Shown piece by piece: positions 19,921-50,215 of a stretch of 64,000 bases of DNA. The stretch is from Styela clava (lineage: Eukaryota). A model generated the notes under the pieces. It saw nothing but the letters and a program-made list of their open reading frames with translations, was not told the DNA's origin and ran no database searches. The first letter of the stretch is position 1, and every line of letters starts with the position of its first letter. The DNA lies in assembly GCF_964204865.1 (NCBI RefSeq), contig NC_135252.1:19840001-19904000 (forward strand), in the 5' to 3' direction. The position numbers and the translations under genes were made by a program.

Positions 19921-19943
19921 ATTGGAATACTTTGGATTGTAAG
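19921..19943 (+). other. Spliced-leader-like 23-mer ahead of ORF1
   Basis: ATTGGAATACTTTGGATTGTAAG begins ATT and ends AAG like ascidian SL exons. It resembles the Halocynthia-type SL, recalled from memory as ATTGGAGTATTTGGTTGTATTAAG (needs verification). It is not followed by a GT donor and ends 32 nt before the ORF1 ATG. Confidence 0.6.
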
Positions 19944-19975
19944 CTATTTTGGATATTCGTTCTTGGATACTGAAA

Positions 19976-21271
19976 ATGGATTACTCCGCAGCTCTTACAG
20001 GATCAATAGGGATTACAGGTAATCGCCCTCGATCGGTTGTGGCAGAGGTGAGTGATTCTATTGATATAAACCGATTTCTCTACATCTTGGGAGAAAACCC
20101 TATAACAAAAGGATATGTCGAACACCTGTCAGGAATTTTTGAAACTAGACCGAAAATTTGGTTGATATCTTTCAAACAGTTGAACCCAACAAATCCAAAT
20201 GATTCAGTTAGAGACAAATTTATTGTAGAAACGCAAAATGGCATTAAAGTCGATGGTGTAATAGTACGCTTTTTTCCACCCACAAAACCTCCAACAAGGA
20301 TTAGCATTCGCGATATCCCAGACGAATCACGACCACAAGTCGTTTTCGAAGCTCTGAATAAGGCTGGATGCGGAAAAATTAAAAACATGACCAAACTATA
20401 CTACCGAAACACTCAACTATTCAACGGATATATAGCCGTATGGATAGATGATTTTAAACAGGAAAAACTGCCCCCCTTTCTTGTCATTGACAAAGCTAGG
20501 TGCAAAACCTACGTACCCACCGAGTTGTACAATCCAACATGCATGAACTGCCTTGATACTGGTCATAATGCAAGAAATTGCCGAAATAAAACGAAATGTA
20601 GGTCGTGCAAAATTGAAGGTCACGTTCAGGCAAATTGCCCCCTAAAATCCAATGTGAGACCGAATAACATGGAATCCTGGTTTAAGGAATCGATATCCAC
20701 AAAACCTGGAATAGTATCACATGTAGGAGAAAAAGAAGATGCAATACCAAACAATAACACCACACCAGAAATAGGAGTAAACCAAATTCCAGAAGCAGTG
20801 TTCCCAACTTCAAAATCCGACACAATATCTGATACGGATTTGTTATACGAAGAAGTAAAAGATTGGTCTCTATCAGAAGACAATACTATAACAACACCCA
20901 AAAAGCGCACTCCACCTCGCAAAACAGTCCCGAAGCCTAAATTAAAACCTACATCCACAATAGGGAACACTCCAATTAGACCCCCAGTAATTGGCAAATC
21001 GTATGTAAACATGGTAATTAACGACTTCGAGATTAGAGACAGCACGTCATCATCAGTATTCTCAGACATACTTCAAAGTAACTCGGCACCGGCATACCTA
21101 GAGAACCCAGATAGCACGTATGAAACAGACCCATCACAAACACCCAGACTTGAACCTACTATGAACAAAACCGAAAAACAGATTGGAAAACGGGGAAGAG
21201 AAAATACTTCCTCGTCGACAACGTCGAATATATCACCCTCGCCAAAAAAGGGGAAAGACAATAAAACATAG
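19976..21271 (+). CDS. Retrotransposon ORF1 (gag-like nucleic-acid-binding protein, two CCHC zinc knuckles)
   Basis: CMNCLDTGHNARNC and CRSCKIEGHVQANC motifs with a low-complexity S/T/P/K tail. First in-frame ATG is 19976; the track start 19949 is a TTG. Confidence 0.92.
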   Translation: MDYSAALTGSIGITGNRPRSVVAEVSDSIDINRFLYILGENPITKGYVEHLSGIFETRPKIWLISFKQLNPTNPNDSVRDKFIVETQNGIKVDGVIVRFFPPTKPPTRISIRDIPDESRPQVVFEALNKAGCGKIKNMTKLYYRNTQLFNGYIAVWIDDFKQEKLPPFLVIDKARCKTYVPTELYNPTCMNCLDTGHNARNCRNKTKCRSCKIEGHVQANCPLKSNVRPNNMESWFKESISTKPGIVSHVGEKEDAIPNNNTTPEIGVNQIPEAVFPTSKSDTISDTDLLYEEVKDWSLSEDNTITTPKKRTPPRKTVPKPKLKPTSTIGNTPIRPPVIGKSYVNMVINDFEIRDSTSSSVFSDILQSNSAPAYLENPDSTYETDPSQTPRLEPTMNKTEKQIGKRGRENTSSSTTSNISPSPKKGKDNKT

Positions 21272-21308
21272 AAAGTATAAAATAAAAATCATCTACAAGA
21301 CCCAATAT

Positions 21309-24300
21309 ATGACTGAAAATCTATCACAATTAAAAATAATCTCACTGAACGTAAACGGACTGGAAAAAAATTGGAATAAACTTAAAATCTTCATAACTTA
21401 TCACAACCCAGACATTATTGCTTTACAAGAAGTCCACAGAGTTAAAAGAGACGTTTCCGAGAACCGACTTCAAAACATGGGGTACAGATTATTTATTAAC
21501 TCACTGACCGACTTCGATAAGAGGGATGACCAAAGATTCTTCCAAGGCACCGCCACTGCAATAAGAGAAAACTTATGTGCAACGCACAGCTTTGAATATG
21601 TTACATTCATACCTTGTAGAGCGTGTTCGACAACAATGACGAACTTACAAACCAAAGACAAGCTATCGCTAGTAAATGTTTATGCACCTCCCAGAAGAGG
21701 CGACAGAAAAACTAGAATGTTCTACGAAAAGCTGATAAACTTAGTGAGAGAGATCAAGCATATTCAAATAATTTGCGGTGACTTTAACATGGTTCATCAG
21801 AAAATAGACGTCAGCAACCAAAACTCATTTACACTAGGGAACACAGAAATGCAATGGAAAGACTTTATACAAGCTTACAACTACATAGACACGTATAGAT
21901 ATCACTGGCCCGATAAAAGATTATATACAATTACCAGGAGAAGACAATCCCGACGAATAGATCGAATATATATTCCGTACAACATTAGTCATGAATTGAA
22001 AAATACAGAATATTTAGTAAACACCGTTTCAGACCACCACTTTGCATCACACATCACTTTCAAAAATATTAAACAAGTTAACTGGGGACGGGGAACCTGG
22101 AAAAACAATACAGCTCATTTTAGGCACGAAAAAGTCAGGTTTTTGATAAATGAGATATACAAAAAAGAAGAACAAAGAAAACACGAATATGAAATACTTG
22201 CCGACTGGTGGGACAACTTGAAGACCAAAATTAAAAAAAGCCTCCTCCAACACGGAATTAACGAAGCAAAGGTAAAGAAACAAAATGAAAGCAGGTGGAA
22301 AAATGAAATTCTAAATAGCATGAACAAGTCACCATCAAACCAAGCAATATATATACTCATTAAAAACCTAAAACAAATGGAAAAAGAAAAAGTGATGTTT
22401 AAACAAAATACAGCAAAAATCAAAGCATTAGAACAAAACGAAAGACCAACAAAATATTTCTTTGACAAATTGAAAACTAGAAGACGTAAAACCACTATAG
22501 ACAGACTACAAAACAAAGAAGGAAATTATTTAAAAACAAAAAACGAAATTTTGGAAGAAGCGCAAACATTCTATAAAACACTATGGACACAAACAACACC
22601 AGGTGAGGAAGATAGAATGGAAGAATACCTCAACATATATGGGGAAACTAAGCTTAGCACTGAAGAAAAGGAACAAATGGGGACCTTAGCTTCAAAAGAA
22701 GAACTTCTCGTGACTTTAAAACAAATGAATAACTATAAAACACCGGGACCAGACGGACTATCAAAGGAATTTTACGTTGAATTTTGGGAAATTTTGAAGA
22801 ATGACTTGCACCAGCTAGTAAACAATGCTATCGCTTTCGGCACCTTACCCACCAGTAGCAAAGAATCGATAGTCACCCTTATCTATAAAAAAGGAAATTC
22901 AAATCACCTATCTAACTACCGGCCCATATCTAACCTAAATGTAGATTTTAAACTGATATCAAAAATATTAGCTAACCGATTGAAACCTATCTTGGATAAA
23001 TATATAATGCCAACACAGAAAAGCGCAATTCCTAAACGATCTATATTTGATAATTTACGAAACGTTCAAGGAATATGGAATTATACAACAAAATGGAACC
23101 TACCTTTATATATAATCAGTTTCGATCAGGAAAAAGCTTTTGATATGGTTAACCAACGTTTTTTATTCAAAACCATGACCAAACTAAACTTCAACAAAAA
23201 TATCATTAACTTAATCAAAGAAATGTACAATCGGATATACAGCAGAATACAAATTAACGGGGCTAAAACCAATAAAATCTTTCTGACAAGAGGAATCAGA
23301 CAAGGCTGTCCATTGAGCATGGCAATGTACACCTTAGCCGCTGACCCATTGGCAAGAAAAATCATCGCGAACCAAAAGATAAAAGGATTCAACATCGGAA
23401 AATACAAAACCGTAATTGATCAATTTGCAGACGACAATACAACATACGCGCGAGACATTGAATCGATAGAACACACCTTCAACGAATTTAAGACTTACGA
23501 ATTAATAACGGGACAAAAAATAAATGAGAAAAAAACTGAAATATTATGTACTAACCAAATCGCAATGCAAAAACTTAAAACCTCGCCGTACAACAAATTC
23601 ATGAAACCAAATATAAAAGTTTTAGGCCAAATTATAGGACCCCAACAGACGGAAAAAACTTGGGATGAAATCCTCAAAAGACTTAGGAACACCCTGGAAG
23701 TTAATAAGCAGAGACAATTGACGTGGATAGGTAAATTCCAAATTTTAAATGCCTTGTGTATATCGCAGGTAATATACCACGCTAGAGTAGTGAATGTACC
23801 ACCAATCTACATACGGAAACTGAACACACTTTTCTTTGACTTCATCTGGCACCCAGAAAGCTTTCAGCTATTGGCACAAAATAAATTAACAGCCGATTAC
23901 TACAATGGAGGATTAAATGCCCCATGCATAAAAACAAAAATACAGGCATGTCTTCTGGAAAAAATAAAAACATTGAAAGCAATAACAGAACCTAAAGAGA
24001 TATGGCACGCAATAGCCCTTTATGACATTGGCACGAAGATAAAGAGAATAAATCCCAAACTTTACACCAACCAGATGCCCCATGCCCTCGAAACCCCAAA
24101 GCACTGGAAAGATTGCATTCAGTTAACCGAAAAAATAGGCATAAAAGAAGAAAAATGGACAGACATTTCTTTCAAACAAATTTACCAGACGATCTTGAAA
24201 TCAAACCAATCGGGAAGAAGAAAAGGGGAAGAAACACAAACATGCACCAATTGGAAAGAGATTCTAAGTAAAGAAAAAGACATAAAAAATATAATAACAA

Positions 24301-24827
24301 ACAAGGAAAGGGTGATATCATACAGGCTGGCGCACAATGCAATACTAAATGGAACACAAAGAAAAAGAATCAATTTATATCATACAGTAAGCGGGAAAAT
24401 GGCTATCACGGAGTGTAAATTCTGCTCGAAATCGGAGGACAACACGGAACACCTTATTAAAGAATGTCCTTTCACGTGGCGGATTTTGTATAAAATACAA
24501 AAATCTCTGAATCAGGCTCTGCAAACACATCACCCCTTTTTAAATGAACTACTTTGGCATAATATCTACTTAAAAGAAAACCGAAAAATAATATTAATAA
24601 CAGTGAATATAGTAAAAACTCAAATATACAAGGTCAAATCAATGAAGGACATGACAAACACAAAAATGAATCCCGAAGAAAGTAAAAGGATAGAAGATGG
24701 CATAGTTTCGAAAACTTTTAATAAAATGGGCTGGAGAGTAAAAAACATAGAATCACTCAGCGAAGAAATAAAACAGATAGAGAAAATTGAAAATTGGTTG
24801 GCCCAAAAAAGTGTTGCTACAAACTAA
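21309..24827 (+). CDS. Retrotransposon ORF2 (APE endonuclease, reverse transcriptase, C-terminal CCHC)
   Basis: APE motifs NVNGL, LQE, GDFN, RIDR, SDH. RT motifs PGPDG, YRPISNLNVDFK, DQEKAFD, GIRQGCPLS, FADD. C-terminal CKFC..EHLIKEC. First ATG at 21309. Confidence 0.96.
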   Translation: MTENLSQLKIISLNVNGLEKNWNKLKIFITYHNPDIIALQEVHRVKRDVSENRLQNMGYRLFINSLTDFDKRDDQRFFQGTATAIRENLCATHSFEYVTFIPCRACSTTMTNLQTKDKLSLVNVYAPPRRGDRKTRMFYEKLINLVREIKHIQIICGDFNMVHQKIDVSNQNSFTLGNTEMQWKDFIQAYNYIDTYRYHWPDKRLYTITRRRQSRRIDRIYIPYNISHELKNTEYLVNTVSDHHFASHITFKNIKQVNWGRGTWKNNTAHFRHEKVRFLINEIYKKEEQRKHEYEILADWWDNLKTKIKKSLLQHGINEAKVKKQNESRWKNEILNSMNKSPSNQAIYILIKNLKQMEKEKVMFKQNTAKIKALEQNERPTKYFFDKLKTRRRKTTIDRLQNKEGNYLKTKNEILEEAQTFYKTLWTQTTPGEEDRMEEYLNIYGETKLSTEEKEQMGTLASKEELLVTLKQMNNYKTPGPDGLSKEFYVEFWEILKNDLHQLVNNAIAFGTLPTSSKESIVTLIYKKGNSNHLSNYRPISNLNVDFKLISKILANRLKPILDKYIMPTQKSAIPKRSIFDNLRNVQGIWNYTTKWNLPLYIISFDQEKAFDMVNQRFLFKTMTKLNFNKNIINLIKEMYNRIYSRIQINGAKTNKIFLTRGIRQGCPLSMAMYTLAADPLARKIIANQKIKGFNIGKYKTVIDQFADDNTTYARDIESIEHTFNEFKTYELITGQKINEKKTEILCTNQIAMQKLKTSPYNKFMKPNIKVLGQIIGPQQTEKTWDEILKRLRNTLEVNKQRQLTWIGKFQILNALCISQVIYHARVVNVPPIYIRKLNTLFFDFIWHPESFQLLAQNKLTADYYNGGLNAPCIKTKIQACLLEKIKTLKAITEPKEIWHAIALYDIGTKIKRINPKLYTNQMPHALETPKHWKDCIQLTEKIGIKEEKWTDISFKQIYQTILKSNQSGRRKGEETQTCTNWKEILSKEKDIKNIITNKERVISYRLAHNAILNGTQRKRINLYHTVSGKMAITECKFCSKSEDNTEHLIKECPFTWRILYKIQKSLNQALQTHHPFLNELLWHNIYLKENRKIILITVNIVKTQIYKVKSMKDMTNTKMNPEESKRIEDGIVSKTFNKMGWRVKNIESLSEEIKQIEKIENWLAQKSVATN

Positions 24828-32799: not shown

Positions 32800-34427
32800 A
32801 TGAACTCGAAGGTTATTGTTTTCATCGCACTGGTGGCAATGCTTGCTGTCGATAACACCCAAGGGTGGAAGTGGTGGAAAAAGGCGGTGAAAACAGCCAA
32901 AAAAATTTGGAACCATCCGTGAGTTCTCATATTTAACTTTATGAAAACACAAGAAACAATCACATGAATTAAATTTCACTTGGAAAGTTGATTTATTTTT
33001 AAAAATCAACGTAAAACGTATCCTTTCATTCCAATTCCGAATCTATATATTTTCTTTTATTTCATACATGGGTGGCAATTTATGAATATTACTTGACAAT
33101 AAAAAAAAAAACTTTATTTCGAATATATTCTACTCTTAAGTCTACCACAATAAGGTACATAGAAAGTTATAAGCCATATATTTTTTTCAGTGTCACCAAA
33201 GGAATAAGAAAAGCGTTTAAAAATTGGGATGCAATTACAGCATTGAGAGAGATGGTAAAAAATTAATAAATTCTCAGACAAATAATGTATCGTATGGATA
33301 TTATTACGCGTGTTTGAGTAATTTACATTTGTAGATAGTGTACAACTACCTATATCTATACTATCTATATAACTATCTATAAATGTTTTTTTTAAACTAG
33401 AAATGCTAAAATATATGGACACACAGACCAAAGCGAAGTAGTATCAAATATTCTACAGTCGCAGTAGTCTGATCACCGTATTGTTGAGTTACCACACAAA
33501 ACTTCAAAATGAAAAACGAGTCTCTTAGAACCCCAAAAAAATTTGAAATAAGTATAAGTAATAGCCTTTCAACGACAATCTTAAACCACTAAAAAAATTC
33601 AAATCAATTGGTTCAGTAAATGAAGATGAAGTTTTTTTTTTCCACAATGGCAGTATCAGCAAGATGGAAAAGAAAAACACTAACAACATAATAACAAAAC
33701 TAATGATATGTTTACTTCGTTTTCAACAATTCCCAGTTTATACCTTTTTGAAAAAAAGAAGAAAGTATTTGCCGTAGCCGAATATTTATTATGTATTTCT
33801 TGTATTATTCTTCCAACATTCAATACACCGTACTCCAAATTCACTTTGGCAATATTTCCATTTCAGAACGACTATGAGTACGAGAGCATAATGGAAAAAG
33901 TGAGAGACGATCTTGAAGATGATTATACCGAGAATGAACTTGATGAGCTTTTTGATGCCGTCAACCGAATCAGAGGATTGAGTGAAGGTAAATTCTATAT
34001 ATAATTGGTCGAATATCTCACGTCATCTATTATTAAACAGGCGGATAAACTGCAGACTGACATACTTCCAGGTCTTACTTTAGTCTTACTGAGAAGTTCT
34101 CAGATAATTCTTGATGGTGCATGATTTGTTAAATAGAACTAATTTCGCTCCGAGCTAATGTTTATTAATCCTACGCTGTTTTGTCGCACTTTTGACTGTG
34201 CTCATGAAATATATCATTACATATCCCTTATATCATTGAGCAAAAAATTGATAGCAAGGCACAGTTTACTAAACCTGTGAAGTAAAACAAAAATTCTGAC
34301 TAACTATCTTCTAATTGCAGACAATTTCATGGCTCTCAAGCTGATGACCGATGGAGTTGATTTTAACGATCAAGTTGACGCAAGCGATGTTGCCAAGGCT
34401 TTCGCCCGCAGTTTGTTGAGCCAGTAG
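32800..34427 (+). CDS. Styelin/clavanin-type antimicrobial prepropeptide gene E (136 aa) with Trp/Lys-rich amphipathic region and long acidic propiece
   Basis: Exons 32800-32918, 33191-33254, 33867-33987, 34321-34427, GT-AG, phases 2,0,1. Protein: MNSKVIVFIALVAMLAVDNTQG-WKWWKKAVKTAKKIWNHPVTKGIRKAFKNWDAITALREMNDYEYESIMEKVRDDLEDDYTENELDELFDAVNRIRGLSEDNFMALKLMTDGVDFNDQVDASDVAKAFARSLLSQ*. Also TATA near 32181, a non-coding first exon with GTAAGT donor near 32263, acceptor at 32790 and AATAAA near 34489. Confidence 0.88.
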
Positions 34428-34578
34428 TTCTTTGACAAAAATGTTGACACAGTTAATGTGTTAAAGTGTTCTTTCTTTAATGAATTTAAATAAAGATTGC
34501 ATGAACTAAATTATTTTGTGTTTCATGTTACAATAGAATTAGCAAAAAGTGCCAGTTATCGAAATAGGGAGTAATATA

Positions 34579-34749: not shown

Positions 34750-35970
34750 ATATGCGTACTACATATATGAACATGGAATAAATAGAAGCAATAAAACGCA
34801 CCATATATTAAATGCGATTAAATATAGATAGCCCTTTCTTGGTCGTTGCTCGATGAACAAAATTATACATTACGGATGTGGAAATTTTCCGAGTAATTTT
34901 GTACGATTAGGTGAAAGTAGAATCCGCCAATATATGTTTATGTTCGATTTATTTCACAATTAATACATAACCAAGTGACAAATTTGTGAAAAAGTCTTTT
35001 TTAATTTAAACACTGATACTTTAAGTTTGCTCTGTTTAATGAATACTTCTTCCGGACCTCCTGAAGTATGCACACTAAGATGGCGCACAACCTGAAGTCA
35101 GGTTATCATGTTAATTAGAATTAAAACTTTAACGAAATCCAAAGCGGCAAACTGTTGGGTTACCTATTTTTATATATACCTGCTGTGTATGGATCATTTG
35201 TGTAATGGAAAAAAAGAAAGAAAGGATAATGGGAGCAATTTTTACTATCATATGAGCGGGTCGGCATAGGCAAAAATTTGATGCTTACTCTTTTTGTTTG
35301 GCGCTCGATGAACAAAAACTAAGAAAAATGGAGAAAGATTAATTTGCAATTTTCAACTACTATTTATTGTAATATAATACAAAAAAGCCATAATTAAAAT
35401 TGGTTAATGGTGCTATATTCATGTTAAAGCACTCAAATCGTTGACTCTTCAGCTTTGGATGTTCGACCATCATAAAAAATCAAATCATGTTGAATGCCAA
35501 TTTAGTATTTTTGTGTTATTCAGAAACAATTTTTGTATCAGATTCAAAAGTAAAATCCCACAACGCGAATAAATATTACTTACATTCATGTCGATAGCTG
35601 ACAATAGGAATAATTTGTAGCGAATGTTTGTTGCCAGACTTATTCATAGTAAAAAATGCGCAGCTGGTAAGAAGCAAACTATTGTGTATGCATGACATGT
35701 ATAAGTCTGGCAACAATAACTAAAGTTTTATTCTTTTTTTTATCATTGCATTGCATCAAAGCAACAAAATTCAGTAATAGATTATTTTAATAAAATTTTT
35801 CCTGATTTTAGGACTTCACGATAAGATTTCATAATCACCTAATACTTAGATCCAAGTTGTCAATAAAAAAATTCAAACAGTTACGTCTCACGAGAACGAA
35901 GAATATTCATTGCACGATTTTCTTCTTTGTTATTTAAGAACTTTATATCATGAAATTACTTGTTATCAAC

Positions 35971-38900
35971 ATGTCGCAAAACCCATATGGAATAGTTGCA
36001 TGATTTCTGCCGCTTATGAATATCATTGTTTCCAGGAGTATGTTTTCATCGTATGTTTTAAGTTGAAAGCAAATTCATAGATAACTATTTCTGTATATAT
36101 TTGAAGTGGATATTGCATGGATGTAAGATTTGCATCAGAAAATGATTCATTTAATGTTGAGACAAAAACAGTATATTATTAAGTTAACACAGATCATAAA
36201 CTTATATATCATAGTATGCTTATTAAATACTGTTAGATTGGAGCAAGTCCAATAACAATAGCCTAACTGTTGGTAAATGGTAAAGATAAGAATTTTAAAA
36301 TGAGTTGCTCTCGACAAACAACTTTGAGCCCTGATAGTGGGCATATTATTCATATTGAAGACTTCAAAAAAGGTGCAGAATGTACCTGGATATTCGATGT
36401 GGAACCGGGAAATAGTTATGCCATTTTGATGAACGTTATGTTTTCTAAAAGAATGAATTGCAATAAAGCTTCATTAAAGATTGGGGGTAAGTTGCAAAAA
36501 GGATGTAGGATTCACCTATGTTAGATAGTCATATTCACTGATTAGTTCATATACTTTAATGTTGCAGTAAAGTGTGATAATTCAGTGGTTGCATAACTTA
36601 GCCATTTTTGAACCAGTTTTCGGTTATTTATAATAAATATTCGTACATGTTTCGTCACCTAATACCTTTATACCTTAATTAAAAGCTTTGGAAAATGTTT
36701 TTTTGAATATTTCAGATTCCGTTTCATTACTCTTTAATTAATTTTTATATTTTGCGGTTCAATAATTTTCCTGTTCAATATACTCTATCATACGCATTTC
36801 AGGAACTGAATTTTGTGATAAAGAAAACCAATTCTGTGTCCTAAATTCAAAAGACCAATGCAACGATGAACTACTTATGGTTCCGGGTTGCCAGACTTTT
36901 AAGATTGATGGCTCACCTGTGGTGGAATACAAGGGCAAAAAGACATCAAACGAGGAAATTAAAATGTACTATAATATTTTAGAATGCGAAAATTCAGGTA
37001 ATAGACTTGACGCCATCCCAACATAATTTATAAACTAACTTTATTAATATTGTCGCTAGAGGACTATTGCTTTCAAATATTTTTGTGGGCTCTATGGGAA
37101 ACGTTTTGTCATTTTGAAGTTTTGTATGATGTTATCAAATTGATAACCGTGTTGCGGTTTTGCGGTAGCATTTCAGCGATATGGTAGTCAGATTGACGGT
37201 ACAGTACAGGATTCGATACTAGTGGTTTTGGCCTATATGTACATATATTGAAGAATTGCTTCTTGTTTTCTTATCAATTAGTTTATACATTTGCATTTTG
37301 CTTTGAATTAGAACCTCCAGAAACATCAAGTAAAAACATACGACGTCGAGTACCAACAACACAAAAAACAAAACCACCAACAAGTTCATCCACTCTGAAA
37401 TCTGGAATTAAAAAAGATTCACCATTCCCAACAATATATACAACCAATAATCAAACTTATTATAATCAGACGGAGCCAGCAGTACCTAACATTAAAGGTA
37501 AGTTTAATTCATGTACAATAACACAAATGACTCGGGAGACTATATAGAATACAAATTTAAACAACTTAGCATAATCTCTTTCCTCGAAATAGCAATTCGT
37601 TAGATCGTAGTCGTAGTCTAAATTCTTCAGAAAATACAAGATTTCACTACGAATTTGAAAAACTGTAATAATCAACGAGTCGAGTTACTGTAATAAACTT
37701 TGAAAAGTTTATAGGTGATTTGAAGATTTGATTTATATCAACTTGGCTGACTGTCTAGGCCAGGGGTTCTCAACCTGTGGTTCGCGAACCCCCAGGGGTT
37801 CACGAGAAGATTTCAAGGGTACTTGGATGGCAGTCGAGTTTCTGTGTTTTTTTTTTAATATTCTTTAACAATAGAAAACTAAGTAACTAACAGATGAAAA
37901 TTAATGCCAATTGAAACTCATCGAAATTTTCACTGATCTCGCGTTGTTGTGATTGTGACGCAAGAATGCGAAATGCACAACTTTTCAGCCAAACTAGGAA
38001 ATCTCAATGACAATGTGCTGCGAGCATTGCAGAAAGCTCATTGAAACTTGAGAGGGGGGTGGAGGTGGGTAAAGAAAAAAGGTTGAGAACCCCTGGTCTA
38101 GGCTAATTGATGTGGATGAATTCTGGTCCAGTCGATTTGTATAGTTTCCATTGCTTGTTTTTAACGTGTTTGCGTATAATATTGTTGTTATGTATTTGAA
38201 GAATACATTTTTTCGAGTGCACCATAATACTAGAAATAAATGGGTATCACAACGCCAATAAACAAAGGTGTACATTACATCAGTGTTGGTATAAAAAGCA
38301 TATATAAAGGAAATATTACTGACATTTTAAAACCACGAAGAACATGCAAAACCGATTAAATGTGTCCAATCAAAATTATCATAAAAATAATTGGATATAT
38401 TTTTGAATTATGTCTTTTATTTTATAAATATTTTGTGTACCTAAGCATAGGCATATCCAAAAATAGTAAATAGACACAACGCGCATTAAAAATATCATTC
38501 CAACTTGTAAAAGAATGATGGTATTGAGCATTTAATCAAAATAAATAAGACCTCTTTGTTTCTTTCAGGTTCACAGAAAGACTATCACATGACTGATGTG
38601 GTTTTGCCACTAATACTCTTTTCTATCCTATTTGCTGTGTTGCTGGTTTTCATGCTTTATACGAAGTAGGTGTATTTTCAAACTTCCATTTTTTTATCCG
38701 TCCTTTTTTTTAAAGGAAAACGTCAGGAAAGCCCATGTTGACTCCTGTCTGAACGCGTTTGGTACTCCTGAAGTATGCGCACCAAGATGTCGCATAACCT
38801 GAACAATAACCTGGTACACAACCCGAATTCAGGTTGTGCGCCATCTTGGTGCGCATACTTCAGTAGATCCAAACGTTTTTATTTTATATTTCTAATATTG

Positions 38901-39885
38901 ATCTTCTGAACATGCCCGAAAGTTTTTTTTTATAAGCTTTAAAATGAAATGTGTAATTGTGCCACTGTCAGGAAATTTTTTATACGTTATTAGAGCATAA
39001 AACTTTACCATAATCAGTAATGTACAAACTTCGATTTAAAAAATATTCGTCAAGATAAGATGTGCAATGCTTTGGTACATAAACTACTATTCATTTTTTT
39101 TCTAAGTATTTAAAATATGCTGTCGCTATTTTTTTTTCAGACGCAAGCAGCAATACAACAAAAACAGAGCACATACGTTCCAAATGAATCCTGCTTTGTA
39201 CAAATCTGCGTCACTTCCGGTTCTTGGAGACGCAATTCTTCAAAATCAAGAATTACATGATATAAACATCAGTCGTTCACATAATTGCTTGAATCAAGAA
39301 ACGCCGGTAATGATTCCAGGAATATTGGTGAATGGAAGACATGATGTCATTTCAGATTACTCCCGCTCAGCAAGTTTTATGGGAATAAACGCAAATGAAG
39401 AGCATGTTACAAACAATTTAGATGTCAAAAATCAACTTCCAAACACTCAGGAACAAATTTTTTTATGCCCTTCCCCAACTTTATTCCGTGCTTATTCAAA
39501 CGCACAAGATATTACAAATGAAATATCAAAGGACGATTATGAACTGGAACCACATATCGTTCGGTCTTATTCAACAACTTCAGAACTTTCAGCAATCATT
39601 GCCGCTGATCATCCTTATAGCTACATAGCACACGAAAATAACGCACAAATTCCATGTTATGCCAGTAGTAGCAATGATGACTCAGTTTTTCAAAACTGTG
39701 CAACTCGGAATCACCAGTATGCAACAATCTCTTTAAAATCGGATAATGCCAATGTGACTACGTCTACAACTTATGATGCTGAGAAATATAATGGCGCTAA
39801 TTTCAATCCATACTCAGTGGCGAGTGACCCACAAGCAGGTAATAATCAAACAAGAGATGATATTTACTCTGTTGTCTCAAAATAA
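35971..39885 (+). CDS. CUB-like-domain single-pass receptor with Tyr-motif tail (gene C); 5' end disrupted or unresolved, possible pseudogene
   Basis: Exons about 36237-36487 (CSRQ..SGHI..CTWIFDV..C), 36803-36997 (Cys-rich, ends YNILEC), 37312-37497 (S/T/P stalk), 38569-38665 (TM VVLPLILFSILFAVLLVFMLY) and 39141-39885 (tail ending DDIYSVVSK*), GT-AG and phase-compatible. Candidate first exon 35971-36037 has an in-frame TGA at 36001; exon 2 has a 7-bp duplication. Confidence 0.7.
37761..38095. mobile_element. hAT-type MITE in a gene C intron
   Basis: TIR CAGGGGTTCTCAACCT/AGGTTGAGAACCCCTG, perfect 8-bp TSD GTCTAGGC. Confidence 0.9.
38761..38870. mobile_element. Short palindromic MITE
   Basis: Near-perfect ~45-bp inverted arms (CTGAAGTATGCGCACCAAGATG..). 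Related copies at 59755-59863, about 35055-35110, 16690-16880, 16990-17200, 19277-19378 and 32445-32590. Confidence 0.75.
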
Positions 39886-41149
39886 GCCATGAAACATAGC
39901 AAATAGCTTAAAGTATTACAAATGCTGATTAACAAATCGAAAATCCGCAAAATAATTGAATTATGTCGCGGTATGAAGAAACTACAAAATCTATAAGTAA
40001 AGGAAGTAGAAACTAAAAATAGCATATCGCACCGAGTGTACAAAAAAGTTTTCCTAATGCAACAGTCAAAAACAAAATCTGTATTTTTGTCTGCGAAAAA
40101 TTCTTACTTGACAACAGATTGATAATCATTTTTGCGGAAAAAAGCATATCACTGTTTATTTGCAATGAAGTCCACCTACATTTTGCAATAATTCCTGTAA
40201 TTACTTCGAAGGCAGAAAAAAAGTGTACTAATGATATCTATTCGTCTATTTATTGATGAATTTTTTATTTACTTTCCTGAGTTTTCTGTTGTATAATACA
40301 ATTTGATTGTTCTTTGCAATGTCTATAATATGTGTTTTATTTTGACAGTTCTCAAAATCCAAATTCAATCGTGTCTATGATAATAAAATGTAAAAGTATA
40401 CCGCTCCATTTGTTAAATATTTGTCATTACATTGCCAGCAATTTTGGTGACGGTGTAGCTAATGTCAGTATCTTAATTTTGTAGTAGGGACCTAACGTCG
40501 CTATAGTTGTTTAGAAGATTTATGAAATTTCGGCTTTGAAATATGTCGATTTGTATTTTTGCTTCAAAAATTCTAAATTTGCTCAATTAGAATTTCCATA
40601 GCACCGAGTGTTAATCAAATATTTCAATATTGAATTCCACACATAGGGCTTCCAATTAAACAATTTATTTAGTCAATATTGAGACTTTTAAATGAAGGAA
40701 ACTAAAAACGCTAAGATGGTATCAGAATAAAGGAAATCAGTAATTAAAAGATGAGAACTTATGAACACCAACGTGGAGCAAGGATAGACGCAGGATTTAT
40801 TAGTACAGGCTACTAAATCGTGATGAAACGCTCTAATAATAAGGCATAAGCTACAGTACTGCAGTACTGTCATCACATGATTTTGAAACGTATGAGAATT
40901 CAATATTCAGTCAGTCAGTAGTTTTTTATCACATACCGAAAATACACATTGGACAAACATAATTAAAAAATGCATTTCAGTGTGAAGAATGACGCGATAA
41001 GCCAGTGGTGGTTATCGAGCAGCGCCACTTATGAGGAAGCAAGTCTAACATTAATTCATACTGAGGAAAATAGTCGAACACAAAATACCAACGAAAGCCG
41101 AACTTTGAGTTACACTTAAGAGACCGGATATCCCGGTGTCATTCTAGTT

Positions 41150-41770
41150 CAGGGGTCGGGAACCTTTTTGGTCAAGAGAGCCATGAAAGGTACATATTTT
41201 CAATTGCATTTCCGTACGAGCCATATAGCATTTCAGGCCTGAAATTTTTACTCAAAAGACAACAAATACAATATCAATACATTTAATGTGACTTTTGATG
41301 CAGCATGTTATCGCTGTAAGCCATGAACGGCTGCTCACATGCAGCACAAGTTGAAATCGACGATATTCATCACCCTTCTTTCGTTCAGGCATCTCTGTAG
41401 TATTTTAAAAACTAGCTTTGCTAGTCCGATTTAAATATGACAAATACTGTAACTAGCACGTACAAACGTACGAAAATCTTTCCTCTATTGCTCCTCGACT
41501 CTATCGCTTTGTGGTGTCACAAAATATGTTCCAGATTCCCCTAGGTTTGTCACAATGCTTTTCTGGTCATTCTCTTAGAAAACATAAACATGCGCTGGGC
41601 GTGCGTTCTCAAAGGTAGTGGCAAATTTTCTACCAAATTTGACTATAAAAGAGTTTGAAATCTCGTAACAATAGTAAGCTTAGCTTTACAATATTAGATT
41701 TTCCTGGGAGCCATAAGCCGTCACCAAAAGAGGGATATATGGCTCGCGAGCCATGGGTTCCCGACCCCTG
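41150..41770. mobile_element. hAT-type MITE
   Basis: TIR CAGGGGTCGGGAACC/GGTTCCCGACCCCTG, degenerate TSD TTCTAGTT/CTCTATTT. Confidence 0.85.
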
Positions 41771-42494
41771 CTCTATTTAATGGAATAAAACGACTCTAGA
41801 TACGATAGGCCGGAATAACCATGGCAATCGCAGTTAATTGATTAACAATAGAATGACAAGAGAATTCGGAGAATTCAATTACACAATACGTTCAAATTTA
41901 TATATTCTTATTCAAAATATTCTTAAAAGTGAATGTACATGTGATCGTTATATCGGAAAGCACAAGATAAAGTACTGCAATGTGTCATCATGTATAGTCG
42001 TAACAAATTAGAATTCATATGCATGTATTCGTAGTATCGGACTATTTTAAGTTTTTAATGTCATGATTCATTACTTCCGTCATGTGCGTGTAGCCTACTC
42101 TCAATATAATGTACTGTAACTACGCGAGAATTACACCAAAATGCATTTAATAAAATACGTGTGTGTTGCAAAATTACGTAGTGTATTACACATACGCATA
42201 TATAGGCTATGAATCAATAGAAAAATATTAGAACACATTAGAGCATATTATTTGTTACAATTTGAAACAAGAAGATTTACTATTAAAAATAAAAGGATGT
42301 GGACATGTGGTTCTTGACATCCACGATGTCTTTCATTACCCACTTATAAATTCTTTGAAATATTGAGATAATACTTCAAGATGAAAAATATTTATGTTAT
42401 TTGCGTACAAGAAAATGTAACTAACAGTAGCATTAATATAGAACATTTTTATACATTTGAACATGTGTATATAAAATGCGACTTTTAATTAGAA

Positions 42495-45400
42495 TCATTC
42501 TGAACTTGGCAATTCATAGGGGTTCTCGTTATCATTTGTTCCCTGTACGGCTATTTCATATTCCTTTGTATTCTCTTCAGTCTTTTTATATTCATTATTC
42601 GATGCGCTGTCGGCCATGGCATATTGTCCACCTACTAATTCATATTCTTTTTCTGCCATTTCGTAATGATTCGGGGAAGTAGGAATGTCCGGGCCCATTA
42701 AATCATGTTCTGAATTTGATGGTTCATATACATTTTCCAATGGAGCATTTTTGTCATTTATTGCCATTGCATATTTGTTGTCAATATCTACGTAGCCTTT
42801 GTCAGCAAACGCGTATTGTGTGTTGTCATTATAGTCATTGTTGGCCATATTAGTAGCCATAGCATATTTGCCATCAATATCAACGTAGCCCTTATCCGCA
42901 AATGTGTAACCTGTTTCCGCCACAAATAAGTTTGTATCTACTCCCATGTAGTCGTGTTTTACTACAGGAATATCTTCATATATCCCGTTTTGTGTGATGT
43001 TTGCAGCTGCATTCTCATTACCAACGATGGAAAGATTATTTCCATATTTTGTTTGAGCATTTCCATTCCAAACTTCATAAGTACCAGGATCTGTATTTGC
43101 ATTAGTGTTGTCTATTCCGTTTGTAAAGTCGTGTGCTTCAGCGTAGGGATTCTCAGATTTAGTAGAAAAAGCTTGTTTTGCTCTGAATAAAATAAAATGA
43201 ACTATGTATTGAAATTTACACCTAATCGTAAATATCCATATAGATTATAGTCACTGATTTTGCCCACTTGCGGAAAGGCAGAAGGAATAAATATTTATTC
43301 CACAAAAAATAAAAATATAGTTTACCGTGTGTTCATAGATTTTTCATTCAATTATTTTTATTCGGCCGTATTGTGAGATTTCTTTTTAATAAAAATTAGA
43401 AAAAAAAAATAAAAATAAAACGTCTACAAGCAGACAATAAATACCCATGAAAACACATACTTAATTTTGATTTGAAATAGGGAGAATTATATGCTTCCGA
43501 TATATGTGACAAAATAGTGCCTGAAATAAATTTTCTTCAGTTTCCTATTATTATCTCCTTATACATATACATACGTAATGTCTTTATTAAAATATAAACT
43601 ATTGAAAAAGCAAAGATATTTAAATATGTACCTGCGTCTCCATAGCATGAATGGAGTTAACAACAGAATAATTAGACTTATTAACATTATTGGCACAGCG
43701 ATCGCTTCAATGTTGGGGTTAGCTGCTGGATTCGTTTCAACAGTCGTATTGGAGGAGATGGTAGTTTCCTCGTTGATTGGCCTGATAAATTTACTTCCTG
43801 CATTTGTTTCTTTGGGCGTTTTTGTCGTGTCAGTATCTAGATGACCAAAACAGTTTAATTAACTTCTAACTGAACAATTTGACCTTTAATATATTCTTGT
43901 CGTGTATTACAACATCTATAATTTGTTTATCCGACGAATTACTTTTGAAGTTTAGTGTAAGGAACATCATTATCAGAAACTCGCGGCAGAAAAGTTTGGG
44001 GCACATATGGCGAGGGGAAGAGGAAGGACAATAACGCTTAATCATAAGAAGAACTTTTGTTCCGGTTACCGTTTCATATCGGATGGGTTTGCCACTTTCT
44101 GCGTTTCAGATGCGTGGACTTGAGGGTCGAAAAAGCGGTAGTCGATTAGCGGTTACGTGAACCACCCTACCACGTTTAGTCTATCAATCCTCTCTTATAT
44201 AATTATTCCCCACGGGATGTAAACATCCGCAAGGCAACCCAAGGTGCCGAGGTACATAATACTATTCCGGATGAAATTGTGGATTACCGTATTGTCACTA
44301 TATACGAAATGTTATATGATAAATAAACATAGGAATCGCCTAGAAGCTTGCATCAATGCAAAGTTTAAATTATCTGATAATTTAAGATAAAAGTTTGTGG
44401 TATAGTTTTACGTAAGAAAACATTATAGTGAAACCAGTGTTGATAAGACTCGACACAATGACTTGAACTACCTTGGACCGAGTCATCTAAACAAAACGAC
44501 TGGACTTGGACTTGAAATCGAACTCGATCTAATACAGGTTTTGGTGAAACACAATTCACCAAGTCCATTGAAATTGAATTGTGAAAATTGAGATACCATC
44601 AGCTTATAGCTGCTATAACTCAAAATATACAGCGATAATGCTCAGAAGAATTTTGTCTATACATGTCTTGTCAATACAGTTTCACTAATAACCAAAATAA
44701 TGTTCGATTAACTAGAATTTTCAGGTTTTAATGTTACTTATGCCTATTCATTTCTTTGTTGTTTATAAAATCCACTATGACTCCAAACCATGATGTGATT
44801 TGGACCTCTGGGTGCATTGACTTACTTTGACTTGAAACTCAAAATTTAAAATTTGCTGGTGCTCGAACTAGACTCGATATTCAAATAAACCGTGACTCGA
44901 CTTGACTGGAGTCAAATTGCACTAAACACTTGCAGTGTTGACAATTTAAGTAATTTATGAAACATTTTATTGCTTAAACTTTATTTAGCGAACAACGAAT
45001 ACCTGCTTTAAAATCTGAACGAGTTTCATACCTGAACAATTGAAAAATCTGTATTTCAATTTGAATTTTTGTGCCGTTAAAGTAAAGAAAAACTTTGTCT
45101 TTAACTGTATTTTGACACCTTCATCATTCATAGATTTTGGAATGCAGTGAGATAACTCAGATATTGAAGAAGTTATTTTGTTGCATTTTGATGAAGTCGA
45201 ATACAGGTTACAAAATGGTTTACTGGAAAAACAGTCCAGTTTTTCTGTAAAAAAATTATTCATGGTATAATAGAATGTAAATTTTCTAAGTTAACGTTTC
45301 CCAACATTTTGGGGAGAAATATTGTTTTGTATTCTCGGTAGTATTACAAATATTCTTAAAATATTTATTATTTCTATTCACGCTCACGTAATGAAATACT

Positions 45401-46908
45401 TGAGCTGTACAAAAACGGGATTACAACTCGCTTGTAAACACTAAAAATGATCCATTAAGGACTGAACAAATAGAGTAGTTTTTTGCGTAGGAAGGGGGAA
45501 TGAGGAAATGCAATATATGCAGAGTGAGGACCAAAAGGATGGGGCTTATAAGTAAACAGTAGCATAAAAACCAACATTCCAACCAAAAATAATAATAATT
45601 CCTTCTTACCTTCATTTATAGTAAGTGAACCAGAGCAACGCGTTTTTCTAATTCCATCATAAGAAGTCTGTATTTCCAATACATCTATTGCTATTGCGTA
45701 GTCTTCAAGATTGTTATTGACAATCCAGTTGCATTCATCATTGTTATAGTAGCTTCCAGGATGACCAGGAGATTTTACAATGCCCGAAGCTTCTGATTCA
45801 ATTTTAGTCTCTCCAAAACATTGCCCTGAAGCCAGCTTCGATACTGAATAAAAACACAATCCAAGTTGAAAATAGCAAAAAAAAAAATTTAAAATTTTTT
45901 TTTGAGTGATTGTACAAAATTCAGAATGAATAGCTTTCAAAATACATTTACACCAATATATTCACAGAAATCCCATTTCCAAAACAACATAGTCCAAGTG
46001 CCAGCTTTGGAACCAAATAAAAACTTAATCCACGTTATCAAAATATAGTGAAATATAATTTTAAAATGAAGGTTTAGAATCTGGGATAGTTCATTCAAAT
46101 TTATGAGTCATTATACAACAATCCAGAATAACTAGCTTTTAATATACATTTACACCAATATATTCACAATAAACATAATGATCAGATACCACCTTTGATA
46201 CTGAATAAAAAACATAATCTAAACTGAATATACTGAAATAAAATTTTAAATGAAACATTGAAATGTACAAAAATTTCCATTTTCTAAGAGATTGTACAAA
46301 AATTCCAGAATAAATAGCCATCAATATAATTTACACTAATATATTGACACTAAACATAATTGTGATCAGATGACAGTAACGGAACTGAATGGAAACTTAA
46401 TTTGAATCGAATATAGTGAACATTTTCAATAACGCATCGAAATTTACGATCTTTTGATTTTTTAAGTGATTATTTAAAAATAAAAAATAAATAGCTTTTA
46501 TTTATATACATTAACACTGATATATTTCACACTAAACATACTTATGATCAGATGCCAGCTTTGATACTGAATAAAAACAATCCAAATTAAACATACTTGA
46601 ATACAATTTCGAATAAAGCATTGAAAGTTACAAAAAATCTTTTAATTATTTTGCGAGATTGATAATGAACAGCTTTCAATATAATTTACACTAGACATAT
46701 CACCTCTGACCAGATGCCAGCTTTGGAATAAATAAAAACATAATACAAGTTAAATATAGTGAAATAAAAATGGAAAAAAAGATTATAAACATTATGTAAG
46801 ATTTTTTCAATTTTTTTGTGATTATATAAAAATGCAGGATTAATAGATCTCAATAATATTCAAATTATTATACCTACCTTGCAAAATGCTTAGAAGTATA
46901 AATATCAT
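42495..46908 (-). CDS. CUB-like-domain single-pass receptor with Tyr-rich cytoplasmic tail (gene D, about 456 aa)
   Basis: Exons 46908-46878, 45843-45610, 45244-45032, 43836-43632, 43182-42495, GT-AG, phases 1,1,1,2. Signal MIFILLSILQVSKLASG, CUB signature SGIVKSPGHPGSYYNNDECNWIV, Thr-rich stalk, TM AIAVPIMLISLIILLLTPFMLW followed by RRR, and an ~230-aa tail with 19 Tyr. Confidence 0.85.
45830..46860. repeat. About 6 degenerate ~175-bp tandem copies of the intron 1/exon 2 junction of gene D
   Basis: CCAGCTT(T/C)GATACTGAATAAAA-like motif at about 45832, 46001, 46189, 46372, 46555 and 46717. Confidence 0.75.
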
Positions 46909-48985
46909 TATAAATATGAATTTCTTCGATATATCAAAATTTTTGAACTAGTAATATCTTAACTGCTTTACTATGTAATATAATTATTAACATGATACGA
47001 ATTGAACAAGAGTGGGAATACATTTCTAAAGTGACGTAGTTCCGATTCCCATATTATGCAACAGTATTGACTTAACGACGATGTAGAAAAATATGATTTT
47101 ATTTATATTTCTATGAAACCCTTGATGTGGACAATTGAGCTTGAACATATAAATTAATCACAATTTGTTTTAAAATTTTAATTTGAAGTTTTTTTTTCCA
47201 GGTTTAAATGCATTTTAGTCTGCGTATCTGAAGATTATTGTATTAGTGAATAACGTAGGAAAACAACTTAAGATACAACTTTTTTTAGTGATGTTAAATT
47301 ATTTCCTGAATCATTCCATGCGCGGTAACGTAGTCTCCAGTGACGTAATTAAGTCGTTGAATGAATGTATGCGTACGTGTGGGTTATTGTAGCTTGGAAT
47401 CAAGATCGGGGGTGATGAAACTCATTACTGGATCCTCTATGATTCATATCATGAAAAAAAAAAAACGGAATATTAAAAACAATTTATCATATTTTAATTG
47501 CATATTCACTTTTTTTGGAAATAGTCACGAATTTGAAAAAAATATGACTGGGCTTACTCTTTTTCATTTAAATCCAAACCCTACTCAAATTAAAAATATA
47601 ATATTTATCCATTACAATTTTATTAATTTAATGGTATAAATTTAACTATGGGAAGTGAAGTCGACAATTGTACTATATCCTGTTAAACAATCATGCGGAA
47701 TCCAAATATCAGAAATGTAAGTGGTTTATTTATTCAGAGCTTTAGAATTCACAATTGACCAAGATTGTAAAATACATCAGGTTATTCAATTATGGAGTGA
47801 TCATTTAAAAAATTGAGTTGAAAAATAGTATTTGCAGAGATGACGGTGATTTGCTGATTAATTAATTACCTTGTTTACGATACATGTGGAAAAATAGAAA
47901 GCCACCGAAGAGCCCACAGAATTTTTTGAAATAAAAAAGTAATAGCCTTGTAACGAAAAATACAATCTTTAACAATTGAAAATTTGGGTCATTAGCGGTA
48001 GACCTCACGCTAGAGCACTATCTTGCGGTATATCCATGGCAGCCATCGATATGAACTCAAAAATAAAAACATCAAGGAAACATAATAATAAGATAACAAA
48101 GAACGGAATGTAACATACAAAATGTATTCATGCCAGTGCGACCCGTGTCAAATCATACTTTGCACTAGAATGGATTTGCACCAGCAGTTCTTTATTCCTA
48201 GAAACTAGCAGTTTCATCTCTCTTCTAAGTTCACTTTCACTGACGCTATGAATACGCGTAGCAATCAATGAAGTTATAAGTTCATTTCTAGCAAATCAAT
48301 CATTCGAATTGAACAATCTAATTGTTTGGTATTAGAATCTCTACCTCTGAATTGAAAGAAAAAATAAGGACACATTTCATGTCAAAATAAGAAATTTTCT
48401 TAAAAATAAGGACAAAATTTTTTTCTAAGATAAAGACATTCAAAAAAAGGACAAATGGTAGAAATAAGGACGTTATGGTGGCCCTGAATATATCCCACAC
48501 TATAGTTTTGGTGGCCCACACGCTATTGAAGCCCGTCCTATTTTTTTCAAAATTTATGTGTATCGATTGGCATCTCAAAATATCTATGTACGTATATGCG
48601 TTAACGTGACTAGCTTTGATTGATAAGTTGTTAATTAATGATTAATATCGGATACTTGTCAGTATGACTGATTGATTATTCAAATCATGCATTTAGAAAT
48701 AATAAATAATTACAGTTGTCCTTGTGTGCAAATGGTCACTTATCCGACATTGGTGGAAATTATCAATGATCAATGTACTTGCAAGTAAGGTCAGTCAGTT
48801 CACTAATGATAGCTAGCAACTGTCGTTGACGTATAAGCCAGGGTTTTCCCTGTGTAAATTATCGAACTCCCTCCGCTTCGTTCCGCTTCAAACTGGTTTT
48901 ACTGTCAATCATTTCTTCGTTCTATTTAATCCGCCTCAATCCAGATTGGTAGTCATTTAGCATTTGTTAAACTGGTTGTTCCGTC

Positions 48986-50215
48986 ATGCAGTACGTCGGG
49001 TTTGACAAAACTTTAGCTGTGAGGAAATTTCAAGAATATCTTCGCATTAAAACGGATCATCCAAACCCTGACTACGAAAGGGCGAATGAATTTCTTATAG
49101 AATATGCTGAAGAGTTGCAAGTAAAGGTAAAACTAGTTCAAATCGGAGATGGGGAAAGATCGATAGTACTGATGCTTATACCAGGAAAACAACCAGAGCT
49201 GCCGTCTATTCTTCTCAATTCACACATTGACGTAAGCTGCGCGGATTATGTCAATTGGAAGCAAGATCCATGGTCCGCGTACAAAGATGATATTGGAAAT
49301 ATTCACGGTGTCGGGGCCCAGGACATGAAATGTGTTGGTATTCAGTATTTAGAAGCTATCAGGATTTTGACACTTTTAAGAAAAGAACGTTTTGAACGGA
49401 ACATTTATATTTCGTTTATTCCTGATGAACAAATCAACGACGGTTCATTGGGAATGACATTATTCATTCAAACGCAGGAATTTAAAAACATGAATGTAGG
49501 TTTCGCTATGGATGAAGGTTTAGCCAATCCTCTGGACCAATATTCAGTATACTACGGAGAAAAGATTCCGTGGTGGGTACGCGTCAAATGTCAAGGACAA
49601 GGAGGGCACTCGTCGAATCTAATAGGAGAGTCTGCCGCTGAAAAGTTTTCTCGTGTAATAGCATCATTTATGTCTTTTCGCAAAGGTGAAATCGAAAAAT
49701 TGAAAAACAATTCCACCTTGCGAGTAGGAGATGTCACGTCCATCGAACTCACCGTGCTTGGAGGTGGAGAACGCCCAAATTCGATACCTCCTGATTTTTC
49801 AGCCACGTTTGACGTCCGAATTCCACCCTCGGTTAACTTAACCGAGTTCGAAGAGATGTTAACCGGATGGTGTCAACAAGCGGGCAAAGACGTCACACTT
49901 GAATTTTTATACAAAGGGATGTGTCAGGTGACAACTCGTAGTGACGAATCTAGTCCATGGTGGATCACTTTCACTGAAGCACTTCGAGAAAATAATCTGA
50001 AGTTTTCTAAAGAAATTCACCCCGCATTTTCAGACGGTCGTTTTCTGAGGGAGATCGGTATTCCGGTAATTGGATTCAGCCCAATGAAAAATACTCCCAT
50101 CGCCCTTTTCACATCAGATGAATTTTTGAACGAGGATGTATTTTTGGATGGTATTAGGGCATACTGTGCCGTTATTAGTGCCGTTGCTAATTTGGACACG
50201 GAGTGGGCTTGCTGA
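48986..50215 (+). CDS. ACY1: Aminoacylase-1-like M20 metallohydrolase, intronless, atypical metal site
   Basis: 409 aa with ACY1 motifs FQEYLRIKT, SILLNSHIDV, GAQDMKCVGIQYLEA, GFAMDEGLANP, VYYGE, GDVTS, GFSPMKNTP. Confidence 0.9.
   Translation: MQYVGFDKTLAVRKFQEYLRIKTDHPNPDYERANEFLIEYAEELQVKVKLVQIGDGERSIVLMLIPGKQPELPSILLNSHIDVSCADYVNWKQDPWSAYKDDIGNIHGVGAQDMKCVGIQYLEAIRILTLLRKERFERNIYISFIPDEQINDGSLGMTLFIQTQEFKNMNVGFAMDEGLANPLDQYSVYYGEKIPWWVRVKCQGQGGHSSNLIGESAAEKFSRVIASFMSFRKGEIEKLKNNSTLRVGDVTSIELTVLGGGERPNSIPPDFSATFDVRIPPSVNLTEFEEMLTGWCQQAGKDVTLEFLYKGMCQVTTRSDESSPWWITFTEALRENNLKFSKEIHPAFSDGRFLREIGIPVIGFSPMKNTPIALFTSDEFLNEDVFLDGIRAYCAVISAVANLDTEWAC

What the first reader, a model, noticed from the sequence alone, without database searches (positions are those of the whole stretch)
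35971..46908. Convergent pair of non-catalytic CUB-variant receptors with tyrosine-motif tails next to the AMP cluster
Seen: genes C and D share a split CUB-like domain whose second exon carries extra Cys (C..FC..C..C..Y...C), an S/T stalk, one TM, a phase-2 intron after the TM and a single-exon tail of 230-250 aa with no enzymatic domain. Gene C ends with YSYI, YATI, YSVA and IYSVV; gene D has YEDI, YVDI x2, YELV, YEIA and YELP. Known: such YxxI/V/L motifs are SH2 docking sites, and vertebrate paired immune receptors combine related ectodomains with differing tails. Inference: a candidate lineage-specific paired signalling or immune receptor family.
Basis: partly seen in the sequence, partly recalled or inferred. 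Interest (0 to 1): 0.7.

Follow-up and report, generated by a model that had tools for sequence, protein, structure and literature searches.

The report
Sea-squirt CUB-variant tyrosine-tail receptor family
These two neighbouring sea-squirt genes encode distantly related surface proteins with a cysteine-rich, predicted CUB-fold outer domain and enzyme-free, tyrosine-rich tails that likely dock signalling proteins; they are too different to be a matched on/off pair, but they are likely outliers of a family of about 70 or more genes, one cluster of which joins near-identical outer domains to two unrelated tails, as immune paired receptors do.

Summary
Both genes are real. D (456 aa) is intact and spliced in contigs of presumed RNA runs from two studies. 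Their domain is an 8-cysteine CUB variant (predicted fold, Z 9.0) without the calcium-site motifs. C and D are only 23% identical there, each is closer to an unlinked paralogue, their tails are unrelated, and neither has a canonical ITIM or ITAM; C's YxxI/L/V count is at chance. So they are not a pair. Both link through P0052 to a family with at least 70 loci in the stretches fetched. One array (G000:C14, 34 ectodomain loci) joins ectodomains 74% identical between classes to two unrelated tails: twin Y[AS]V[VI] motifs, or repeated YEV/YEI motifs. That is paired-receptor architecture on a CUB-like scaffold, which my paper searches did not find described. The scan apparently noted this array before on other DNA (e1-8661580, e1-9927922). 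C echoes the YSVV class and D the YE class in motif type only. Ligands, phosphorylation and hemocyte expression are untested.

The parts
46878..46908 (-). Gene D exon 1, start of signal peptide (phase-1 donor)
   Evidence: identical to NCBI model P0001; its joint was not listed
45610..45843 (-). Gene D exon 2, N-half of CUB-variant domain (C19, C48, C80)
   Evidence: Pfam CUB 21.1 bits, E 4e-4, cut-off 21.4; joint seen
45032..45244 (-). Gene D exon 3, C-half of domain with C93, C100, C109, C122, C158
   Evidence: CUB fold of the whole domain
43632..43836 (-). Gene D exon 4, S/T/P stalk and TM helix, phase-2 donor
42495..43182 (-). Gene D exon 5, 228-aa tail with 19 Tyr, 7 of them YE (YEDI 42980, YELV 42644, YEIA 42560, YELP 42518) and duplicated YVDI (42887, 42794)
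35692..35773 (+). Candidate signal-peptide exon of gene C (unproven; needs the weak acceptor at 36286; one extra T at 35733 in run X9)
35971..36003 (+).
36267..36486 (+). Gene C exon with N-half of CUB-variant domain; in-frame TAA at 36264-36266, NCBI start Met 36300
36803..36997 (+). Gene C exon with C-half of domain (extra cysteines)
37312..37497 (+). Gene C S/T/P stalk exon
38569..38665 (+). Gene C TM exon, phase-2 donor
   Evidence: joined to tail exon in run X6
39141..39885 (+). Gene C 247-aa tail exon with 14 Tyr (YSYI 39616, YATI 39718, YSVA 39811, YSVV 39865)

Best explanation
C and D are diverged, likely ancient members of a sea-squirt family of single-pass surface proteins whose 8-cysteine, predicted CUB-fold domain likely binds a protein ligand and whose enzyme-free tail is likely phosphorylated by Src-family kinases and would then recruit SH2 proteins. 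Shown: gene structure, family membership, splicing of D, motif content. Inferred: D, with seven YE sites, would act as a receptor with a built-in adaptor platform of the activating type, and C, if it reaches the surface at all, would carry a YSVV-type dock resembling inhibitory motifs. They probably see different ligands and are neighbours from an old duplication. The recognition/defence role is borrowed from the family's behaviour: tandem arrays, broken and truncated copies, and in the C14 array near-identical ectodomains on two unrelated tails.
For: Fold: model pLDDT 68.8, pTM 0.66; the top 23 of 50 VIA rows are CUB-bearing proteins, best Z 9.0, rmsd 2.9, 108 aligned; Foldseek's top rows agree. 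Family: a profile built without C and D scores D 77.9 and C 34.3 bits against shuffle maxima 17.7 and 12.6. Ectodomain-only scores D-P0052 100 and C-P0052 80, each 0 of 2000 shuffles; P0052 hits 88 places, mostly on C14. Same intron phases in the two C14 genes checked. 70 loci with the first domain exon in the fetched stretches. C14-type ectodomains (31 compared): 74.2% between classes, 72.5% and 76.6% within; tail scores between classes 33.9 against 31.3 shuffled and about 260 within; class labels need 7 changes on the ectodomain tree against 8.8 shuffled, 62 of 500 as low. Src, Syk, SHP-1, Vav, Grb2 and Crk homologues are reported in Botryllus, while LAT and SLP-76 are reported absent from ascidian genomes (PMC12582321 section 17). 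Atlas neighbours by features: single-CUB mollusc proteins 0.90-0.91, CDCP1 0.86-0.87, DCBLD1 0.83-0.84 (leads only).
Against: No ligand, phosphorylation, partner or cell-type data. No canonical ITIM/ITAM in C or D. The link to the C14 array is transitive: a C14-only profile gives D 15.5 bits (shuffle maximum 14.2) and misses C (111 of 965 shuffles as high), and profile-profile comparison of C14 with dispersed members gives only E 0.013, no better than C14 with canonical CUB (E 0.0023); E and P0135 show no pairwise similarity to P0052. The C14-type model failed, so its CUB fold is not shown. No excess of amino-acid change: dN/dS 0.58-0.69 in the array; 5 of 8 listed SNPs in D's domain are non-synonymous, 78% expected if neutral. 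C's tail does not match the class I profile (129 of 497 shuffles) and D's match to the class II profile is marginal (1 of 500). Only 5 of 21 C6 loci hit the second-exon profile.
Confidence: 0.62

Rival explanations
1. C and D are a working inhibitory/activating pair that sees one ligand.
For: Adjacent, opposite orientation, same exon layout; C carries YATI/YSVA/YSVV and no cluster of YE, D carries 7 YE and no YSVV-type motif, echoing the two C14 tail classes.
Against: 23% ectodomain identity, closer unlinked paralogues, no DNA homogenisation, no canonical ITIM/ITAM, doubtful signal peptide in C.
Confidence: 0.1
2. They are developmental or adhesion scaffolds working like CDCP1 or DCBLD, and the position beside antimicrobial-peptide genes is chance.
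For: Atlas neighbours are CDCP1 and DCBLD1 clusters; C and D are single-copy rather than arrayed; no sign of diversifying selection in D; the other neighbour is an aminoacylase-type M20 peptidase.
Against: The family shows large tandem arrays, broken copies and swapped tails, a pattern typical of recognition receptors (PMC5112662 passages).
Confidence: 0.22
3. Gene C is a decaying copy that has lost its signal peptide, so only D makes a surface receptor (compatible with the best explanation).
For: In-frame stops upstream of the domain; two NCBI versions without signal peptide; the one candidate signal exon needs a purine-rich acceptor (8 pyrimidines against 11-15 in the 8 other acceptors) and has an extra T in run X9; no RNA contig over C's first exons (weak).
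Against: All 469 codons from Met 36300 are open in two alleles that differ at 17 residues, with all 8 cysteines kept; the TM-tail joint is spliced; a plausible signal exon exists.
Confidence: 0.35

Closest known systems
Vertebrate paired receptor families (CEACAM1/CEACAM3, KIR, Siglec, SIRP; PMC5112662, passages seen)
   Same: Clustered genes with very similar ectodomains and different tyrosine-motif tails: matched by the C14 array.
   Different: Scaffold here is a CUB variant, not Ig or C-type lectin; C and D themselves do not share similar ectodomains; opposing function untested.
Botryllus schlosseri fester co-receptors, FcoR (PMC12582321; abstract and sections 13 and 17 read)
   Same: Tunicate multigene receptors with tyrosine motifs; FcoR core-2 ([A/D]VYxxV) pairs lie 29-33 residues apart at the C-terminus, like the twin Y[AS]V[VI] motifs of C14 class I tails (33 apart in the one tail counted by hand).
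   Different: FcoR ectodomains are Ig-like and sushi; C and D match no core-2, ITIM or hemITAM pattern.
CDCP1 and DCBLD1/2 (CUB-bearing, kinase-free transmembrane scaffolds; their mechanism is recalled, not read here)
   Same: CUB ectodomain, one TM, tyrosine tail; near neighbours in the Atlas feature search.
   Different: They carry several CUB domains or CUB-LCCL-discoidin; C and D have one 8-Cys domain and no such Pfam hits.
Halocynthia roretzi hemocyte ITAM glycoprotein (PMC5465252 passage; the name A74 is recalled)
   Same: Membrane protein of a solitary ascidian with tyrosine motifs, active in phagocytosis and aggregation.
   Different: It has two ITAMs; its sequence was not retrieved, so any homology is untested.

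Membership tests
CUB domain (PF00431) | CUB beta-sandwich fold | tested here: met
   D model: Z 9.0, rmsd 2.9, 108 aligned to TSG-6 CUB; top 23 rows CUB-bearing. C not modelled on its own.
CUB domain (PF00431) | Pfam gathering score 21.4 | tested here: not met
   D exon 21.1 bits, whole protein 17.2; C exons no CUB hit. Paralogues P0014, P0135, P0055 pass.
Calcium-binding CUB | Acidic C..D[YF] and F.[ST]D motifs (motif definition recalled) | tested here: not met
   Absent in C and D; present in 19 and 23 of 30 canonical CUB stretches; 8 Cys against a mean of 4.
Paired receptors (C versus D) | Highly similar ectodomains | tested here: not met
   23% over 122 columns.
Paired receptors (C versus D) | Canonical ITIM in one member, ITAM/hemITAM or charged TM in the other | tested here: not met
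   0 ITIM, ITAM, hemITAM in both tails; TM segments uncharged.
Paired receptors (C versus D) | Same gene cluster | tested here: met
   Stops 2.6 kb apart, convergent.
Paired receptors (C versus D) | Ectodomain exons homogenised by gene conversion | tested here: not met
   Best blastn match 27 nt, E 0.006.
Paired receptors (C14 array of the same family) | Highly similar ectodomains on two tail classes | tested here: met
   74.2% between classes, tails unrelated.
Paired receptors (C14 array of the same family) | Inhibitory versus activating motifs | tested here: inconclusive
   Broad ITIM S[IL]YAVV in 6 of 8 class I tails; ITAM-like spacing in only 4 of 19 class II tails, which carry YEV/YEI repeats.
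Paired receptors (any member) | Opposing signals on a shared ligand in immune cells | not testable with these tools
   No functional or cell-type data.
Botryllus FcoR | Ig-like plus sushi ectodomain | tested here: not met
   D folds as CUB; only a sub-threshold Sushi_2 hit in C's exon (17.2 bits against 22.1).
CDCP1 / DCBLD | Multi-CUB or CUB-LCCL-discoidin ectodomain | tested here: not met
   Single domain of 125-142 aa; no such Pfam hit for P0001.
Halocynthia ITAM glycoprotein | Sequence homology | not tested
   Paper not held; no sequence retrieved.

The most novel reading that the evidence does not exclude
A solitary sea squirt has built a whole paired-receptor system on an 8-cysteine CUB variant instead of Ig or lectin domains: old dispersed members such as C (YSVV-type tail) and D (YE-type tail) mark the origin of two signalling modes, and young arrays multiply them on shared ectodomains, with YE-repeat tails standing in for the LAT/SLP-76 adaptors that ascidians lack. 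This would supply candidate receptors for hemocyte pathogen sensing or the allogeneic contact reaction.
Probability: 0.35. Interest if true: 0.78.

Novelty: new variant of a known kind. Interest (0 to 1): 0.53.

Why it matters
Known paired and allorecognition receptors use Ig or C-type lectin domains. A CUB-variant family of about 70 or more genes with two tail classes would be another independent solution in the vertebrates' sister group, and it gives a concrete gene list for the open question of which receptors drive hemocyte recognition in solitary ascidians. The two genes in this window matter mainly as the outliers that tie the family to the CUB fold; alone they are ordinary tyrosine-tail receptors.

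Tried and rejected
No holder was on record as RNA; runs X1, X2, X4, X6 are guessed RNA and are contigs, so they give no expression level. Missing cover over C's first exons is no proof of silence. Word-based protein searches found only S. clava proteins (1, 1 and 4 hits), weak evidence on range; P0054 from an unnamed source is at most 41% identical to anything in this genome, so the family is probably not confined to this species, but its organism is unknown. The C14-type structure model was poor (ectodomain first half under pLDDT 50) and its fold search returned only helices, Z at most 4.1: uninformative. The tree is the quick version; long branches meet; loci without both exons or flagged broken were left out (51 rows). 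Exon-B pairwise alignment of C and D alone was at chance (248 of 1000). Positive selection not detected. No tRNA. No complex prediction was run: no candidate ligand. Paper searches: ascidian+ITIM+CUB domain+receptor+hemocyte (9 listings), A74 searches, Styela clava+CUB+transmembrane+tyrosine+immune (3), tunicate+paired receptors+ITIM (3), Styela clava+genome+tandem+CUB domain (0), Halocynthia contact reaction (6), DCBLD+CDCP1 (0); none of the listings describes this family, but most were seen as listings only, subscription journals are missing and no supplements were read. PMC12065747: passages only; PMC6916515: abstract only (HrSMLP1 is described as DD3-3-like, so not pursued). My hand model of the upstream AMP-like gene was out of frame after exon 2, so its later exons rest on ORF reading only. 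A proteome-wide control for how common such tails are among this species' single-pass proteins could not be run.
Full report
Observation. The window lies in a 377-Mb animal genome; NCBI names the protein of gene D as Styela clava LOC120343053 and that of gene C as LOC120343242. Gene D has five exons on the minus strand and gives 456 aa, identical to the NCBI model. Three of its four joints appear in contigs of runs guessed to be RNA, in 3 of 4 runs laid and 2 studies. Gene C on the plus strand has the same layout from its domain exon onward. Intron phases are 1 within the domain, 1 after it and 2 after the TM, and neither tail has a Pfam hit.

Gene C's 5' end. Two further runs show the same letters there. 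Both NCBI versions start at Met 36300 without a signal peptide. A scan of 26-36.3 kb gave four candidate signal exons; the nearest, 35692-35773, gives an open signal only with a weak acceptor at 36286 and carries an extra T in run X9. Against decay, the 469 codons are open in two alleles differing at 17 residues, and the TM-tail joint is spliced in one run. I leave C's status open at about 35% decaying.

The domain. Pfam CUB is just under threshold for D and absent for C. A model of D's domain (pLDDT 68.8) matches CUB proteins in Foldseek and VIA (best Z 9.0, rmsd 2.9, 108 residues). Nine of ten dispersed members examined have 8 or more cysteines against a mean of 4 in 30 canonical stretches, and C and D lack both acidic motifs of calcium-binding CUBs. 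The model shows a helix inserted in the second half. Two extra disulfides are inferred; pairings were not read from the model.

Are C and D a pair? No. They are 23% identical in the domain; C is closest to a gene at C1:19.18 Mb and D to P0014 at C1:6.95 Mb, both 31%. Their DNA shares nothing longer than 27 bases and their tails are unrelated. Neither has a canonical ITIM, ITAM or hemITAM. C's YxxI/L/V count is at chance; D's real signal is YE, 7 against 1.7, and its two YVDI are one duplication.

The family. A search of 1.84 billion representatives with D found 143 proteins, mostly multi-CUB proteins matching only the first half; four S. clava proteins matched across most of the domain (P0014, P0052, P0055, P0135). 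Searching the genome with them revealed an array on C14 and one on C6. In the fetched stretches 70 loci carry the first domain exon, a lower bound. In the main C14 array 34 ectodomain loci sit on two kinds of TM and tail: class I with twin Y[AS]V[VI] motifs, class II with YEN plus a variable number of YEV/YEI sites. Ectodomain identity is 74.2% between classes and 72.5% and 76.6% within; the tails of the two classes score at shuffle level; the ectodomain tree does not sort the classes. That meets the structural definition of paired receptors given in PMC5112662 (passages). I found this array before looking up the scan's notes on this genome; two earlier notes (e1-8661580, e1-9927922) appear to describe it, and my 34 plus 5 ectodomain-less units equals their 39. 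They are not independent support.

How firm is the link from C and D to the array? Both align to P0052 far above shuffles on the ectodomain alone (100 and 80; 0 of 2000), P0052 is 23-53% identical to the array-type exons, and intron phases match in the two array genes checked. But a C14-only profile barely finds D and misses C, the profile-profile score is weak, and the C14-type model failed. I put the link at about 75%.

Mechanism. By established knowledge of kinase-free tyrosine-tail receptors, ligand binding or clustering would let Src-family kinases phosphorylate the tail, which then recruits SH2 proteins. The needed kinases, phosphatases and adaptors are reported in Botryllus, while LAT and SLP-76 are reported missing from ascidian genomes (PMC12582321 section 17), which makes YE-rich tails plausible built-in adaptors. 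C's YSVV-type sites resemble the C14 class I and FcoR core motifs in kind (section 13), but C's tail does not match the class I profile, so this is likeness of motif, not shown descent. Every step after gene structure is inferred. I found no positive selection, and adjacency to AMP-like genes has no support beyond position.

Verdict. My paper searches showed no description of a CUB-based receptor family of this kind in tunicates, within the limits of the library. Novelty: new variant of a known kind. Interest 0.53; 0.78 if the family proves to be a working CUB-based paired-receptor system.

Noticed in passing
G000:C14:5528555-5792000 (L060-L087): Tandem array: 34 ectodomain loci (8 class I, 19 class II with TM and tail found, 7 incomplete or unassigned) plus 5 TM-and-tail units without ectodomain; one class II tail has 24 YEV/YEI sites. 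Probably the 39-gene array of e1-8661580.
   Followed up: yes
G000:C6:20218000-20406000 (L100-L119): Second array, 21 loci with the first domain exon; the 7 tails found carry YEE[VI]/YE[KN]V repeats.
   Followed up: partly
G000:C3:22228000-22256000 and C3:22063000-22070000: Small cluster of at least four dispersed-type members with short tails ending in an N[VI]LY motif, including another convergent pair; P0055 nearby has two domains and ends in a canonical ITIM, VSYAKV.
   Followed up: partly
G000:C14:19043487-19046517 (P0052): Bridge member between C/D and the C14 array; tail has two YENL motifs six residues apart, an ITAM-like spacing.
   Followed up: partly
window 45817-46852: Intron 1 of gene D is made of decayed 160-370 bp repeats that copy the exon-2 acceptor and its first codons.
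   Followed up: partly
window 32800-34430 (+), 13858-14049 (-), 8503-8715 (-): AMP-like genes: a multi-exon precursor with signal, cationic peptide and acidic extension (styelin-like by recall), and two related cationic ORFs 62-66% identical.
   Followed up: partly
window 19943-24824 (+): Two long open frames (442 and 1220 aa) that read like a zinc-knuckle protein and an endonuclease/reverse transcriptase of a non-LTR retrotransposon (by eye).
   Followed up: no
window 48971-50215 (+): Intronless 414-codon frame with Peptidase_M20 and M20_dimer hits, aminoacylase-like, possibly a retrocopy.
   Followed up: no
window 38756-38875: Short inverted-repeat element (48-nt arms, 90% complementary) in C's last intron, very abundant in the laid runs.
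   Followed up: no
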